Made by a program: the position numbers and the translations under genes. A stretch of DNA of 12,304 bases from a virus. Lineage: Duplodnaviria > Heunggongvirae > Uroviricota > Caudoviricetes. The DNA lies in the IMG/VR virus record IMGVR_UViG_3300032315_001309, positions 1 to 12,304 of that record; one strand, given 5' to 3'. Of this stretch, positions 4,959-7,740 are shown piece after piece. Position 1 is the first letter of the stretch, and the number at the start of each line of letters is the position of its first letter. The notes beneath the pieces are model-generated. The model did no database searches and was not told the origin of the DNA. It worked only from the letters and a program-made list of their open reading frames with translations.

Positions 4959-5020
4959 AAGATCAGTCAGCAACAACAAATACATTAGTCTCTTAAACTA
5001 ACCCGTAAAAACTGATCTTG
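4959..5020 (+). ncRNA. CAGCAA stem-loop RNA, copy C1
   Basis: P1 AAGATCAGT (4959-4967)/ACTGATCTT (5011-5019) + G; CAGCAA at 4968; inner hairpin TTAGT-CTCTTAA-ACTAA (4985-5001); CGTAAAA before the 3' strand. Confidence 0.7.
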
Positions 5021-5024
5021 CCTT

Positions 5025-5075
5025 AAGTTGATACAGCATAAAAACTGTAGCAAAAAAACAAACCCAATCAACTTG
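5025..5075 (+). ncRNA. CAGCA stem-loop RNA, copy C2 (in the DUF2828 leader)
   Basis: P1 AAGTTGAT (5025-5032)/ATCAACTT (5067-5074) + G; ACAGCA motif; inner TGT-9nt-ACA as in copy B2. Confidence 0.65.
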
Positions 5076-5081
5076 TGAAAA

Positions 5082-6557
5082 ATGACTTTTATTACTGCAC
5101 TTGAATCTGAATTGAATACCACTGAAACTCTAAATGGAGCTAAGGCATATAAATCTACTCTCAACAAATGCCTGGATCTTTTTGGTAAGATCGGCGCATG
5201 TCGCAATAATATCAAACAGGCAGAAAAACTGTTTGATCTAGCATATCGAGAAGATCCTGAAACTGCAACTCGTATTCTTTTCTGGGTAAGGGATGTACGT
5301 GGAGGTAGCGGTGAGCGTAGTATCTTCCGCACTCTATTTAAAAATCTTGTCCAAAAGAATCAAGAGCTTGGCCAAAAGCTAGTAGCACTTGTTCCTGAGT
5401 ATGGTCGTTGGGACGATCTGCTCGTTCTGGAAAATACTTCTGTTTGGAATCAAGTTTTAGATCTGATTACACATCAACTGAATACCGATCAAATCATGAT
5501 GGCCAGTGGTGGTCAGGTTTCTCTACTTGCTAAATGGCTTCCAAGCATTAACGCATCCAGTAAAGATAGTAAGCGTCTTGGACGTGAAATCGCTCAGCAT
5601 ATGGTGCTGACTGAAAGGCAGTATCGGAAAACTCTGGCTCGTCTTCGCTCTCATATTAAAATTGTGGAGCAGCAAATGTGCTCTAAGGAATGGTCTGCCA
5701 TTGATTATTCCAAAGTACCTTCACGAGCTTCTTTCATGTATCGTAAGGCATTTGGAAAACAGGATCCTACCCGATATCAGAAATATCTAACTGATGTTGA
5801 GAATGGCAAGGCAAAAATCAATGCGAGCACCCTATATCCATATGATGTTGTAGATCAGTATCTCAATAAGGGAGCACGGGGAGATAAGACTATTGATCTT
5901 CAATGGGAAGCTCTACCAAACTATATGGGTGATAATCTCCTAAATGGTCTTGTTGTAGCCGACGTTTCTGGTTCCATGACTCAAAATAATGGACTACCGT
6001 TGGCCGTTTCTATCTCTCTTGCGATGTATATTGCAGAGCGAAATGCATCACCAGTTTGGAAAGACAAGTTCATTACTTTCTCTAGTCAACCTGAGTTGCA
6101 AACTGTTGTTGGTAAAACTATTGGAGAACGTATTCAAAATCTTTCCAGAGCAGATTGGGGATATAATACTAATCTCATCAGCGTATTCAAAACTATTCTG
6201 AAAGCAGCTAAGAGTAAAGATGTTGCTCCAGTGGATATGCCACAAAAAGTAATTATTGTTTCTGATATGCAATTTGATCAAGCTTGTGTTTCTAACAAAC
6301 GAACTAACTTTGAGCATATTGAAAAACTCTATCGTGCTTCTGGGTATGAGTTACCTCAACTGGTCTTTTGGAATGTCAATGCAATTGGCGCTAATGTTCC
6401 AATGACTGTTGCTGATTACAATACCTGTTTGGTTTCTGGTTGTTCCCCATCCATCTTAAAATCTGTTCTCAAAGGTGAAATTGTCACTGCTGTGGATATG
6501 ATGAGTGATGCTGTATATTCTGAAAGGTATATGCAGGTCGGAGCGGCATTCAACTAA
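5082..6557 (+). CDS. DUF2828-family protein with C-terminal vWA domain (Ro60/TROVE-like RNA-binding protein), 491 aa
   Basis: Family motifs RDVRGGSGER, YGRWDDL, LAKWLPS, YSKVPS, MIDAS-type DVSGSM, FITFS, WGYNTN, SDMQFD, VFWN, LVSG. TROVE-like helical toroid plus vWA architecture is inferred, not computed. Confidence 0.85.
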   Translation: MTFITALESELNTTETLNGAKAYKSTLNKCLDLFGKIGACRNNIKQAEKLFDLAYREDPETATRILFWVRDVRGGSGERSIFRTLFKNLVQKNQELGQKLVALVPEYGRWDDLLVLENTSVWNQVLDLITHQLNTDQIMMASGGQVSLLAKWLPSINASSKDSKRLGREIAQHMVLTERQYRKTLARLRSHIKIVEQQMCSKEWSAIDYSKVPSRASFMYRKAFGKQDPTRYQKYLTDVENGKAKINASTLYPYDVVDQYLNKGARGDKTIDLQWEALPNYMGDNLLNGLVVADVSGSMTQNNGLPLAVSISLAMYIAERNASPVWKDKFITFSSQPELQTVVGKTIGERIQNLSRADWGYNTNLISVFKTILKAAKSKDVAPVDMPQKVIIVSDMQFDQACVSNKRTNFEHIEKLYRASGYELPQLVFWNVNAIGANVPMTVADYNTCLVSGCSPSILKSVLKGEIVTAVDMMSDAVYSERYMQVGAAFN

Positions 6558-6588
6558 TTTAACTAAAATTATCAAAGAGGCTAAACTA

Positions 6589-6756
6589 GTGGAAATTTAT
6601 GTTCGATGGGTTGGTGGAAAGTATGCAGAGGTTCATGTTGATTTTACTGGGGGTCACATTGAAAGTGGACTTCTCAATTGCAACGAACAAGTTGCGTATG
6701 GTGCCATGTTTCGTGAATTAGCGAATGAATTGGACCCAGAAACGACTGATGATTGA
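6589..6756 (+). CDS. Hypothetical protein, ~55 aa
   Basis: The ORF-track start at 6505 overlaps the DUF2828 gene; in-frame GTG at 6589 has a GAGG SD 8 nt upstream: MEIYVRWVGGKYAEVHVDF...DPETTDD*. Confidence 0.55.
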   Translation: MEIYVRWVGGKYAEVHVDFTGGHIESGLLNCNEQVAYGAMFRELANELDPETTDD

Positions 6757-6759
6757 CCG

Positions 6760-6779
6760 TAATGGCCCAGTGGCCATTA
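6760..6779 (+). terminator. Hairpin, possible terminator or processing site
   Basis: TAATGGCC-CAGT-GGCCATTA perfect 8-bp stem right after the stop codon; only a short T tract (ATTTCG). Confidence 0.45.
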
Positions 6780-6795
6780 ATTTCGAAAAGGGGGG

Positions 6796-6824
6796 TTGAC
6801 AAGCTCGCCCCCCTCTGCTAAGAT
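6796..6824 (+). promoter_or_regulatory. Sigma70-type promoter for the RNA array
   Basis: TTGACA, 17-nt spacer, TG-n-TAAGAT (6819-6824); the first RNA repeat starts at 6832, about the expected TSS. Confidence 0.8.
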
Positions 6825-6831
6825 AAATTCA

Positions 6832-6880
6832 TAGATGATTCAGCCATTAAACTTTTTTGGTAAAAAACAACATCATCTAG
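6832..6880 (+). ncRNA. CAGCCA stem-loop RNA, copy A1
   Basis: TAGATGAT/ATCATCTA 8-bp P1 + G; TCAGCCA; inner TTTT-TTGGTAA-AAAA. Confidence 0.7.
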
Positions 6881-6891
6881 ATTTAAAACCT

Positions 6892-6947
6892 TAGGTGGTT
6901 CAGCAACTAAAAATATACTAAGTCAAACTACAGTAAAAACCACCTAG
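6892..6947 (+). ncRNA. CAGCAA stem-loop RNA, copy B1
   Basis: TAGGTGGTT/AACCACCTA P1 + G; CAGCAA; inner AGT-CAA-ACT; AGTAAAA before the 3' strand. Confidence 0.7.
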
Positions 6948-6954
6948 TTAATTT

Positions 6955-7064
6955 CGGGGAATAGCTCAATGGTAGAGCAACGTAAAATATATCTAGTTTA
7001 GATATTAACTGCAATTTAAAGCATTCGGAGCCGTTGGTTGTAGGTTCGAATCCTGCTTCCCCGA
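6955..7064 (+). tRNA. tRNA-Arg(UCG)-like gene with a 38-nt insertion at 29/30 (T1)
   Basis: CGGGGAA/TTCCCCG acceptor, GCTC-AATGGTA-GAGC D arm, GTAGG-TTCGAAT-CCTGC T arm. Removing 6983-7020 gives the anticodon arm ACGGC-ATTCGGA-GCCGT. Amino-acid identity is uncertain: no A20, and C1-G72/A73 are Pro-like. Confidence 0.7.
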
Positions 7065-7065
7065 T

Positions 7066-7117
7066 TAGATGATTCAGCCATTAAACTTTTTTTGGTAAAA
7101 AATACAACATCATCTAG
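7066..7117 (+). ncRNA. CAGCCA stem-loop RNA, copy A2
   Basis: Near-identical to A1 (one extra T, plus a TA insertion); starts 1 nt after the T1 discriminator. Confidence 0.7.
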
Positions 7118-7143
7118 TATTTTTAAATTTTTATGATATAATT

Positions 7144-7193
7144 TAGGTGGTTCAGCAAATACTGTTTTCCAAATACAAACACCATCCACCTAG
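7144..7193 (+). ncRNA. CAGCAA stem-loop RNA, copy B2
   Basis: TAGGTGG/CCACCTA P1 + G; TTCAGCAA; inner TGT-TTTCCAAAT-ACA. Confidence 0.7.
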
Positions 7194-7201
7194 TTAATTT
7201 T

Positions 7202-7312
7202 GGAGAGATAGCTCAGTTGGTAGAGCAGCGTAAAATATATCTAGTTTTAGGTATTAACCGCAATACAAGCATGTTAAGCCGTTTGTCGTAAGTTCGAATC
7301 TTACTCTCTCCG
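7202..7312 (+). tRNA. tRNA-Asn(GUU)-like gene with a 38-nt insertion at 29/30 (T2)
   Basis: GGAGAGA/TCTCTCC acceptor, G73 (Asn discriminator), GCTC/GAGC D stem, GTAAG-TTCGAAT-CTTAC T arm. Removing 7231-7268 gives GCGGC-ATGTTAA-GCCGT. Confidence 0.75.
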
Positions 7313-7313
7313 T

Positions 7314-7363
7314 TAGATGATTCAGCCATTAAACTTTTTTTGGTAAAAAACAACATCATCTAG
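7314..7363 (+). ncRNA. CAGCCA stem-loop RNA, copy A3
   Basis: Near-identical to A1; starts 1 nt after the T2 discriminator. Confidence 0.7.
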
Positions 7364-7381
7364 ATTTTTTGAATGTCTCCT

Positions 7382-7454
7382 GGGCGCATGGTGAAGTGGA
7401 TTATCACTAGGAGCTTCTACCTCCTCATCCCTGGTTCGAATCCAGGTGCGCCTG
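7382..7454 (+). tRNA. trnR: tRNA-Arg(UCU)
   Basis: GGGCGCA/TGCGCCT acceptor, A20 in the D loop, AGGAG-CTTCTAC-CTCCT, CCTGG-TTCGAAT-CCAGG. Confidence 0.92.
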
Positions 7455-7459
7455 TTAAA

Positions 7460-7489
7460 GTGACATACTTCCTTCTTTTACTATATAAT
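7460..7489 (+). promoter_or_regulatory. Possible internal sigma70 promoter
   Basis: GTGACA, 18-nt spacer, TATAAT (7484-7489), just upstream of tRNA-Gly. Confidence 0.4.
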
Positions 7490-7496
7490 ATATAAT

Positions 7497-7569
7497 GCGA
7501 AATTAGTTCAGCGGCTAGAACGCTATCCTTCCAAGTTAGATGTCACCGGTTCGAATCCGGTATTTCGCT
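7497..7569 (+). tRNA. trnG: tRNA-Gly(UCC)
   Basis: GCGAAAT/ATTTCGC acceptor, U73, GTTC/GAAC D stem, CTATC-CTTCCAA-GTTAG (one T-T mismatch), ACCGG-TTCGAAT-CCGGT. Confidence 0.92.
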
Positions 7570-7606
7570 TAACAATCAATGACAAACGTATTACGATTGT
7601 GTGAAC

Positions 7607-7680
7607 GGGAACGTAGCTCAATTGGTTAGAGCACCCACCTTATAAGTGGGAGGTTCTGGGTTCAATCCCCAGCGTTCCTA
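7607..7680 (+). tRNA. trnI: tRNA-Ile(UAU)
   Basis: GGGAACG/CGTTCCT acceptor, A73, CCCAC-CTTATAA-GTGGG, CTGGG-TTCAATC-CCCAG. Confidence 0.92.
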
Positions 7681-7710
7681 TTGACTTTTGAATTTCCCCC
7701 GCTGGGGGGC

Positions 7711-7740
7711 TTGACAGGCCAGGATCTCCTGTGCTATGAT
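7711..7740 (+). promoter_or_regulatory. Sigma70-type promoter
   Basis: TTGACA, 18-nt spacer, TG-n-TATGAT; followed by a GGCC-GCAA-GGCC leader hairpin and a late-like CATAAATA (7761-7768). Confidence 0.75.

What the first reader, a model, noticed from the sequence alone, without database searches (positions are those of the whole stretch)
4985..7347. Inner hairpins of the mini-RNAs look like anticodon loops (Lys-CUU, Thr-GGU, Trp-CCA): possible anticodon decoys
Seen: C1 has a 5-bp stem with the 7-nt loop CT-CTT-AA (4990-4996); A1-A3 have TT-GGT-AA on a weak T/A stem (e.g. 6857-6863); B2 has TT-CCA-AA (7167-7173). All fit the Y-U-NNN-A-A anticodon-loop pattern. B1 aligns with C1 but lacks TCTT (loop CAA), and C2 (AGCAAAAAA) does not fit. 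Established knowledge: host anticodon nucleases (PrrC on tRNA-Lys, VapC, RloC and others) act in anti-phage defence. Inference: protein-stabilised anticodon mimics could titrate such nucleases or tRNA-modifying enzymes, with the variable loop as the specificity element.
Basis: inference. Interest (0 to 1): 0.72.

Follow-up and report, generated by a model that had tools for sequence, protein, structure and literature searches.

The report
Anticodon-loop copies on phage Ro-like RNAs
Seven small RNAs beside a cyanophage gene for a Ro60-like ring protein share one docking stem, and several carry a hairpin that copies a tRNA anticodon arm, so the phage may display anticodon loops as bait, though no function has been tested.

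Summary
The coordinates and loops are as described. C1 is solid: a 5-bp stem with the 7-nt loop CTCTTAA, kept in 14 of 14 orthologues with compensatory stem changes. A1-A3 (TTGGTAA) sit on a slippery T-run/A-run stem, so loop size is undetermined. B2 (TTCCAAA) has only 3 pairs plus a T-T mismatch. B1 and C2 do not fit.

The resemblance exceeds chance.
- In 97 non-redundant family members, 7-nt loops are the only enriched size (55 RNAs against 26.8 +/- 4.0 in shuffles).
- Ten loops are exact 7-mers of real anticodon loops from tRNA genes in the same loci (null 0.44).
- Both results repeat in an independent set of distant phages.
- tRNA/handle chimeras, two of them in the window, carry the same loop types at the true anticodon position.

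The RNAs are Y-RNA-like partners of a Ro60-fold DUF2828 protein, with a CAGCAA handle.

Against strict mimicry, U33 is present in only 3 of 14 C1 orthologues, against 98% of real tRNAs.

The decoy function is untested: plausible, about 0.25-0.4.

This scan has already noted the protein-plus-handle-RNA system in many other phages. What is added here is a quantitative test of the anticodon reading.

The parts
4960..5018 (+). C1 small RNA: handle stem 4960-4967/5011-5018, CAGCAA 4968-4973, lower stem TAC/GTA, anticodon-arm-like hairpin 4985-5001 with loop CTCTTAA 4990-4996
5025..5074 (+). C2 small RNA: same handle (ACAGCA), no anticodon-like hairpin in this phage; ends 7 nt before the start codon
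5082..6557 (+). Ro60-like protein gene (DUF2828 + DUF7788/vWA), presumed partner of the RNAs
6796..6824 (+). promoter-like TTGACA-17-TAAGAT that would start transcription at about the first base of A1
   Evidence: same arrangement in L016
6832..6879 (+). A1 small RNA, handle with CAGCCA; T6-GGT-A6 hairpin, TTGGTAA at 6857-6863 (loop size ambiguous)
6893..6945 (+). B1 small RNA; inner hairpin aligns with C1 but has a 3-nt loop (degenerate)
6955..7064 (+). T1: tRNA-like gene with a circularly permuted handle (closed stem ATATCTA/TAGATAT, CTGCAA) inserted 5' of its anticodon hairpin; loop ATTCGGA at 7023-7029
7066..7116 (+). A2 small RNA, TTGGTAA at 7092-7098
7143..7193 (+). B2 small RNA, TTCCAAA at 7167-7173 on a 3-bp stem with a T-T mismatch
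7202..7312 (+). T2: second tRNA/handle chimera; loop ATGTTAA at 7271-7277
7314..7362 (+). A3 small RNA, TTGGTAA at 7340-7346
7381..7680 (+). three ordinary tRNA genes (Arg-TCT, Gly-TCC, Ile-TAT) that continue the array

Best explanation
The seven small RNAs are Y-RNA-like partners of the phage's Ro60-like DUF2828 protein.

Each has a docking 'handle': its 5' and 3' ends pair, and next to that stem lies an internal loop formed by (U/A)CAGCAA on one strand and an A-rich run ending in AAAAC on the other. Beyond the handle is a variable module.

In C1, probably in A1-A3 and weakly in B2, that module is a copy of a tRNA anticodon arm (5-bp stem, 7-nt loop). It descends from the same stock as the anticodon hairpins of the tRNA/handle chimeras T1 and T2.

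I infer that the protein holds these hairpins out as bait for host or phage factors that read anticodon loops. Most likely these are tRNA-cleaving defence nucleases, which would be bound or kept busy instead of cutting tRNA. Less likely they are anticodon-loop modification enzymes. The triplet would set which factor is caught.

Shown: the RNA family, its tie to the gene, the anticodon-arm geometry and the sequence identity to real loops.

Inferred: protein binding (odds about 0.8 that these are the protein's RNA partners with anticodon-derived modules) and the bait function (about 0.25-0.4).
For: Protein:
- Pfam DUF2828 + DUF7788.
- AlphaFold model at pLDDT 80. Its 13 best PDB matches are all Ro60/Rsr over the full length.
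- Homologues in 711 phage records, several annotated as Ro-like.

RNA family:
- Hits lie on the gene's strand: 234 against 35 and 57 against 2.
- They flank the gene in cyanophage, Mycobacterium, Listeria and E. coli phages.
- The covariance model finds only these seven copies in the 76-kb record.

Anticodon arm:
- C1 covariation and a constant 7-nt loop.
- Enrichment of 7-nt loops.
- Exact copies of real anticodon loops: 10 against 0.44, and 4 against 0.19.
- CTCTTAA, TTGGTAA and TTCCAAA all occur in real tRNAs of related phages.
- In 31 distinct chimeras the loop at the true anticodon position has T33 in 24, a purine at 37 in 24 and A38 in 25. These loops share 7-mers with the small RNAs: CTGTAAA, CGTTTAA, TTTGGGT.
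- Other family members carry T arms, D arms, closed acceptor stems or whole cloverleaves, so copying tRNA parts is the family's habit.

Function (indirect):
- Ro60-like gp130 of phage Bas63 counters the Ppl defence (bioRxiv 10.1101/2024.10.10.617714).
- Phage tRNAs are known to defeat tRNA-cutting defences (PMC11555353).
- The Listeria phage homologue lies 1.3 kb from an RtcB ligase gene.
Against: - U33 is kept in only 3 of 14 C1 orthologues (G in 6, C in 4, A in 1), against 98% in real tRNAs.
- Position 32 is A in 19 of 31 chimeras and 23 of 59 small-RNA loops, but in none of 128 real arms.
- A-class loops range from 5 to 9 nt, and their stems are homopolymer runs that change length between near-identical phages.
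- B1, C2 and B2 are poor or non-mimics. Many relatives carry T-arm or other modules instead.
- No RtcB gene in this record, in B3 or in the 258-kb relative.
- Ppl, the one defence shown to be countered, is not known to act on tRNA.
- No expression, binding or cleavage data for this phage.
- Much of the cyanophage sample is phylogenetically related, so the counts overstate independence. The distant-phage replicate is smaller.
Confidence: 0.4

Rival explanations
1. Relic or cap. The hairpins descend from anticodon arms of tRNA/handle chimeras. They now serve only as a structural cap that closes the handle, or as a spacer. The triplet has no reader and drifts freely.
For: - U33 is not conserved in the C1 class.
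- Loop length varies from 5 to 10 nt in the A class, and T-run length is polymorphic.
- B1 has lost 4 loop bases and B3's B1 is shorter still.
- C2 has no such hairpin here.
Against: - Drift should erase the 7-nt length and the C32/A37/A38 pattern. Instead C1 keeps a 7-nt loop in 14 of 14 with compensatory stem changes.
- Exact anticodon-loop 7-mers recur in distant phages.
- Loop TGCGGAT is shared by a Mycobacterium phage and an E. coli phage on different stems.
Confidence: 0.3
2. Guide or tether. As in known Ro/Y-RNA particles, the variable module recruits an effector such as PNPase. Alternatively its pre-ordered loop pairs with a complementary triplet or loop in a target RNA, steering the Ro-like ring to particular RNAs, for example tRNAs with complementary anticodons.
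For: - Y RNAs tether Ro60 to PNPase in Deinococcus and Salmonella, and phage phiLo Ro60-Yrl binds host PNPase (PMC4201824, PMC12135203).
- The triplet is hypervariable on a constant scaffold.
Against: - Three to seven pairing bases give little specificity.
- No complementarity partner was identified.
- The loops match anticodon loops themselves rather than their complements.
Confidence: 0.15
3. tRNA maturation. T1 and T2 are real tRNA genes (Arg-UCG, Asn-GUU) whose handle insert is removed or managed by the Ro-like protein. The free small RNAs are regulators, competitors or by-products of that process.
For: - Removing 38 nt restores a 5-bp anticodon stem in both T1 and T2 (lead from note e1-5386696).
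- The chimeras score 50-51 bits as tRNA.
- The arrays are interleaved with ordinary tRNA genes.
Against: - No bacterial splicing route is known for such an insert.
- A32 is present in 19 of 31 chimeras but in no canonical arm.
- Some chimeras duplicate canonical tRNAs of the same phage, for example Pro-TGG and Thr-TGT in L029 and L018.
- The free RNAs have their own complete handles.
Confidence: 0.1

Closest known systems
Bacterial Ro60 (Rsr) with YrlA/YrlB Y RNAs (Chen et al. 2014, PMC4201824)
   Same: A ring-shaped Ro60-fold protein is encoded beside, and on the same strand as, small RNAs. The RNA ends pair into a stem bearing a conserved internal-loop motif, and the distal part mimics tRNA.
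   Different: - The protein is the DUF2828 branch, with no sequence-level match to solved Ro60.
- The motif is CAGCAA, not GNCGAA.
- No Rfam family other than tRNA matches.
- YrlA keeps the T arm, D arm and acceptor arm and replaces the anticodon arm with the Ro stem. C1 and the A copies do the opposite: they keep only an anticodon-like arm.
- There are seven to ten RNAs per locus, and circularly permuted forms sit inside tRNA-like genes.
Thermus phage phiLo Ro60 with Yrl1/Yrl2 (PMC12135203; PDB 9l5y, 9kop)
   Same: A phage-encoded Ro60-fold protein with phage-encoded partner RNAs next to the gene. It is the best structural match to the model.
   Different: The phiLo RNAs carry the CGAA motif and no anticodon-like module is described. 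Sequence identity to the window's protein is about 15%.
Bas63 gp130, Ro60-like protein of a Felix O1-type coliphage that counters the Ppl defence (bioRxiv 10.1101/2024.10.10.617714)
   Same: A Ro60-like gene directly upstream of the phage tRNA array. The authors suspect that some 'tRNAs' there are Y RNAs. Felix O1-type phages carry homologues of the window's protein with CAGCAA-handle RNAs.
   Different: I did not verify that gp130 itself is the DUF2828 homologue. No RNA partner was defined. Ppl is not known to target tRNA.
Phage tRNAs as counter-defence against tRNA-cleaving systems (PMC11555353 and related work)
   Same: Phage-encoded anticodon-bearing RNAs in tRNA arrays are proposed to blunt tRNA-targeting immunity.
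   Different: Those are full, decoding tRNAs that replace cleaved host tRNAs. The RNAs here lack an acceptor end and cannot decode. They would act, if at all, as bait.

Membership tests
Y RNA (partner of Ro60/Rsr) | Encoded next to and on the same strand as a Ro60-family gene | tested here: met
   Ro60 fold. Position and strand bias of the RNAs.
Y RNA (partner of Ro60/Rsr) | 5' and 3' ends pair into a stem next to a conserved Ro-binding motif (GNCGAA(N)G in bacteria, PMC4201824) | tested here: not met
   The terminal stem is present and its sequence differs between classes (those sequences were picked for perfect arms). The conserved motif is (T/A)CAGCAA opposite an A-rich run ending in AAAAC, not GNCGAA.
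Y RNA (partner of Ro60/Rsr) | Match to a curated Y RNA / YrlA model in Rfam | tested here: not met
   Rfam 15 at E up to 1 on the window gave only tRNA plus two chance plastid hits. In 17 related loci, only tRNA, tRNA-Sec and tmRNA reached the gathering score.
Y RNA (partner of Ro60/Rsr) | Physically bound by the Ro protein | not testable with these tools
   Needs a pull-down or a gel shift.
tRNA anticodon stem-loop | 5-bp stem closing a 7-nt loop | tested here: met
   C1: 14 of 14 orthologues, with compensatory changes. Family-wide enrichment of 7-nt loops. Not decidable for A1-A3 (slippery stem) and not met for B2, B1 and C2.
tRNA anticodon stem-loop | Invariant U33 | tested here: not met
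   The window's C1, A and B2 loops have T at this position. Among C1 orthologues it is T 3, G 6, C 4, A 1. T33 is 44% in the small RNAs and 77% in chimeras, against 98% in 128 real arms.
tRNA anticodon stem-loop | Purine 37, usually A38 | tested here: met
   C1 class: A37 and A38 in 14 of 14. Chimeras: purine at 37 in 24 of 31, A38 in 25 of 31. Weaker over all small-RNA loops: A37 47% and A38 56%, against 36% in the null.
tRNA anticodon stem-loop | Loop sequence identical to loops of real tRNAs | tested here: met
   10 of 59 against 0.44 expected, and 4 of 31 against 0.19 in distant phages. CTCTTAA, TTGGTAA and TTCCAAA are all found in real tRNAs of related loci.
tRNA (whole molecule) | Acceptor stem, D arm and T arm forming the L shape | tested here: not met
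   The free small RNAs are 48-59 nt and give no tRNA model match. Only T1 and T2 match, at 51 and 50 bits, each with a 49-nt stretch in place of the 11 central anticodon-arm positions of the model.
Decoy of anticodon nucleases (functional class) | Binds or is cut by a tRNA-cleaving defence nuclease and protects the phage | not testable with these tools

The most novel reading that the evidence does not exclude
Phages with the DUF2828 Ro-like protein carry a fast-evolving library of protein-held anticodon stem-loops, free-standing or grafted into tRNA bodies. These act as programmable inhibitors or baits for host anticodon-reading defence nucleases, and each phage's triplet repertoire tracks the tRNA targets of its hosts' defences. 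The frequent U33-to-G/C and A32 changes would make the baits bind without being cut or used in translation.
Probability: 0.2. Interest if true: 0.9.

Novelty: new variant of a known kind. Interest (0 to 1): 0.66.

Why it matters
Ro60/Y-RNA particles are conserved from bacteria to humans, yet what the variable part of a Y RNA does remains largely open. Known bacterial tRNA mimics keep the tRNA elbow and drop the anticodon arm.

Here a large phage branch does the reverse. It displays bare anticodon arms, many letter-identical to real ones, on a common protein-docking handle, with the triplet changing between close relatives.

If these are baits for tRNA-cleaving immunity, this would be a new RNA-based counter-defence. 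It would also help explain why Ro-like genes sit inside phage tRNA arrays. E. coli, Listeria and Mycobacterium phages with the same handle RNAs offer workable systems to test it.

Tried and rejected
- **Loop pairs with handle.** Prompted by GCCA/TGGT in the A copies, I asked whether the loop pairs with the CAGCAA handle as an alternative fold. 16 of 97 RNAs contain a 4-mer complement against 16.9 +/- 3.1 in shuffles, so this is rejected as a general feature.
- **Degenerate T loops or D loops.** T loops (TTCGANT) are a separate, clear class: 21 of 80 7-nt loops. C1-type loops do not fit the T54/A58 pattern. The D-loop reading of TTGGTA was dropped once TTGGTAA proved to be the exact Thr-GGT anticodon loop of related phages.
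- **Minimum-energy folding.** It is unreliable in this AT-rich RNA, so I replaced it with folding-free hairpin counts.
- **Sequence search against solved structures.** No match. Only the fold search found Ro60.
- **Covariance model R1.** Trained on cyanophage copies, it reaches few distant relatives: 13 hits, all on the gene's strand.
- **RtcB ligase.** Absent from this record, from B3 and from a complete 258-kb relative.
- **Supplementary tables of Chen et al. 2014.** Not held, so I could not check which of their 22 phages are of the DUF2828 type.
Full report
**What is there**

The window is 96% identical to Synechococcus phages B3 and B23 and belongs to a 76-kb viral record.

The ORF at 5082-6557 carries Pfam DUF2828 and DUF7788. 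Its AlphaFold model has a mean pLDDT of 80. The 13 best matches in the PDB are all Ro60/Rsr proteins aligned over the full length, led by the Ro60 of Thermus phage phiLo. A plain sequence search of the PDB finds nothing. Homologues occur in 711 phage records, several annotated as 'Ro-like RNA binding protein'.

Around the gene lie seven small RNAs on the same strand:

| RNA | Coordinates |
|---|---|
| C1 | 4960-5018 |
| C2 | 5025-5074 |
| A1 | 6832-6879 |
| B1 | 6893-6945 |
| A2 | 7066-7116 |
| B2 | 7143-7193 |
| A3 | 7314-7362 |

Each has a terminal stem of 8-10 bp. This is followed by (T/A)CAGCAA (CAGCCA in the A copies) and closed on the 3' side by an A-rich run ending in AAAAC. A covariance model of this 'handle' finds only these seven copies in the whole 76-kb record. 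A promoter-like TTGACA-17-TAAGAT would start transcription at about the first base of A1.

**The family**

- A simple descriptor (8-bp arms plus CAGC) applied to 60 related viral loci gives 234 hits on the gene's strand against 35 on the other. The hits cluster just upstream and downstream of the gene.
- The same handle flanks the homologous gene in Mycobacterium phage Gabriela, Listeria phage LMSP-25 and E. coli phage JH2.
- It also occurs in many distant metagenomic phages. A stricter scan of those gives 57 hits against 2.
- The terminal stem differs in sequence between classes while staying paired. Those sequences were selected for perfect arms, so the strand bias and the location are the independent evidence.
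- Rfam has no family for these RNAs. Only tRNA models match, and only on the two long tRNA-like genes.
- Published bacterial and phage Y RNAs carry GNCGAA or CGAA instead (PMC4201824, PMC12135203).

These are therefore Y-RNA-like partners of a divergent Ro60 branch with a different handle. This scan has already noted that system in many other phages. The Listeria RNAs lie where a transcriptome study saw three very abundant non-coding RNAs upstream of an Rsr-like gene (PMC12282133). That correspondence is my inference.

**The observation itself**

- **C1** is as described, and the minimum-energy fold recovers it. In an alignment of 14 orthologues the loop is always 7 nt. The four inner pairs are paired in every sequence, and three of them show changes on both sides. 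The loop reads C-N-N-U-U-A-A. C32 occurs in 13 of 14, A37 and A38 in 14 of 14, and the 'anticodon' is mostly NUU (CUU, UUU, GUU).
- **A1-A3** have GGT between a run of 6-7 T and a run of 6 A. TTGGTAA is one of several equally drawable loops. The T run is 6, 7 or 8 long among copies here and in B3. ViennaRNA prefers a competing GCCA/TGGT pairing.
- **B2** has 3 pairs and a T-T mismatch.
- **B1** looks like C1 with four loop bases lost.
- **C2** has no such hairpin here.

**Is it more than chance?**

In 97 non-redundant family RNAs, I counted hairpins of at least 4 bp whose loop ends cannot pair. Such hairpins with a 7-nt loop occur in 55 RNAs, against 26.8 +/- 4.0 (max 36) in 200 dinucleotide shuffles. 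Loop sizes 3-6 and 8-11 are not enriched beyond size 6 (38 against 28). The folding-based count gives 36% against 7.6%.

About a quarter of these loops are tRNA T loops (21 of 80). The rest show C or A at position 1, T at position 2 (44% against 30%) and A at positions 6 and 7.

The sharpest test uses the 77 distinct anticodon-loop 7-mers of ordinary tRNA genes in the same loci. Ten of 59 non-T-loop loops are exact copies, against 0.44 +/- 0.65 expected (max 3 in 300 shuffles). CTCTTAA, TTGGTAA and TTCCAAA all occur as real Lys-CTT, Thr-GGT and Trp-CCA loops.

In an independent set of 45 RNAs from phages whose protein is at most about 47% identical, 7-nt loops are again the only enriched size (23 against 12.2 +/- 2.8). 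Four loops are exact anticodon loops (Lys, Met, Asn, Thr), against 0.19 expected.

**Homology with true anticodon arms**

The two long tRNA-like genes at 6955-7064 and 7202-7312 score 51 and 50 bits as tRNA, each with a 49-nt stretch in place of the 11 central positions of the anticodon arm in the tRNA model. That stretch holds a circularly permuted handle. The A-rich strand and the 3' arm come first, then a closing loop, then the 5' arm and C(T/C)GCAA. A short hairpin follows, holding ATTCGGA in one gene and ATGTTAA in the other.

Such chimeras are common in relatives. At the position fixed by the T arm, 31 distinct arms have T33 in 24, a purine at 37 in 24 and A38 in 25. Fourteen become exact canonical loops if position 32 is changed to C or T. 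Their loops overlap the small-RNA repertoire (CTGTAAA, CGTTTAA, TTTGGGT). Position 32 is A in 19 of 31 chimeras and 23 of 59 small-RNA loops, but in none of 128 canonical arms. This marks handle-associated anticodon arms as a lineage of their own.

Other members carry a T arm alone, a T arm plus a D-like arm and a closed acceptor stem (YrlA-like), or a whole cloverleaf or tRNA within the handle. Copying tRNA parts is what this family does.

**What argues against strict mimicry**

- U33 is present in 98% of real arms but is T in only 3 of 14 C1 orthologues.
- A-class loops range from 5 to 9 nt.
- Several copies are degenerate.
- Complementarity between loop and handle, which could have explained the A-copy variant CAGCCA, is not enriched.

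**Mechanism**

The RNA family, its link to the gene, the anticodon-arm geometry and its identity to real loops are shown. Protein binding and function are inferred.

The best reading is that the Ro-like protein holds out anticodon arms as bait for factors that read anticodon loops. The triplet would act as the specificity element, since it varies between orthologues while positions 32, 37 and 38 stay fixed. tRNA-cleaving defence nucleases are the most natural targets. Phage tRNAs are known to counter such systems (PMC11555353). A Ro60-like protein of a Felix O1-type phage counters the Ppl defence (bioRxiv 10.1101/2024.10.10.617714). The Listeria homologue lies near an RtcB ligase gene.

None of this touches these RNAs directly. 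Ppl is not known to act on tRNA, and this phage group has no RtcB. From memory only, as a lead: the pattern conserved in C1 (U36-A37-A38 with a free position 34) resembles the determinants of t6A37 formation. Lys, Asn and Thr tRNAs all carry t6A, so modification enzymes remain a live alternative target.

The rivals are:
- a relic or cap with no reader;
- a guide or tether in the manner of known Y RNAs;
- a role in maturing the chimeric tRNAs.

**Verdict**

At family level, the anticodon-loop reading is well supported and replicated. The decoy interpretation is plausible but untested.

Relative to known Ro/Y-RNA systems this is a new variant. It has a new handle, a divergent protein branch, and modules that keep the anticodon arm, which all described tRNA-mimicking Y RNAs discard.

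Noticed in passing
window 6955-7064 and 7202-7312; for example L016:4081-4192, L018:4086-4198, L029:4335-4447: tRNA-like genes carrying a circularly permuted copy of the handle, inserted 5' of the anticodon hairpin. About 60 such chimeras occur in related loci. Most have A at position 32, which no ordinary tRNA in the same loci has.
   Followed up: partly
L068:3966-4020 (Mycobacterium phage Gabriela) and L070:4904-4957 (E. coli phage JH2): The inner loop TGCGGAT is identical in these two very distant phages, on different stems (TGTT/AACA against CTTTT/AAAAG). It is not a known anticodon loop (G at position 33) and is unexplained.
   Followed up: no
L073:4904-5018: A complete, high-scoring tRNA (73 bits, loop CTGATAA, Ile-GAT) lies nested inside a handle stem with ACAGCA and AAAAAC, as if a whole tRNA were the module.
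   Followed up: no
L029:2028-2279: A cyanobacterial-type permuted tmRNA gene (116 bits) lies directly upstream of the Ro-like gene in a related phage, within the tRNA array.
   Followed up: no
window 6785-6824 and 7700-7740; L016:3975-4012: The promoter-like TTGACA is embedded between a G run and a C run that can pair (GGGGGG-TTGACA...CCCCCC). This is repeated before the RNA array and again after the tRNAs. It could be a terminator and promoter in one, or a regulated promoter.
   Followed up: no
window 6832-7362 versus L001:5237-5512 (phage B3): B3 has one A-B-T unit fewer than the window (2849 against 3099 aligned bases). Its B1-type RNA has a much shorter interior, and its A copies have T runs of 7 and 8. 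The array changes by unit gain or loss and by slippage between 96%-identical phages.
   Followed up: partly
L011, L016, L018, L029 upstream of the gene (positions 1-2350): Larger relatives (about 258 kb) carry 13-17 ordinary tRNA genes directly upstream of C1/C2 and the Ro-like gene, so the gene sits inside a near-complete tRNA set. The window's phage has only four tRNAs nearby.
   Followed up: partly
L069:5841-7052 (Listeria phage LMSP-25): An RtcB-type 'tRNA-splicing ligase' gene lies 1.3 kb downstream of the DUF2828 gene, echoing the bacterial rsr-yrlA-rtcB operon. It is absent from the cyanophage group.
   Followed up: partly
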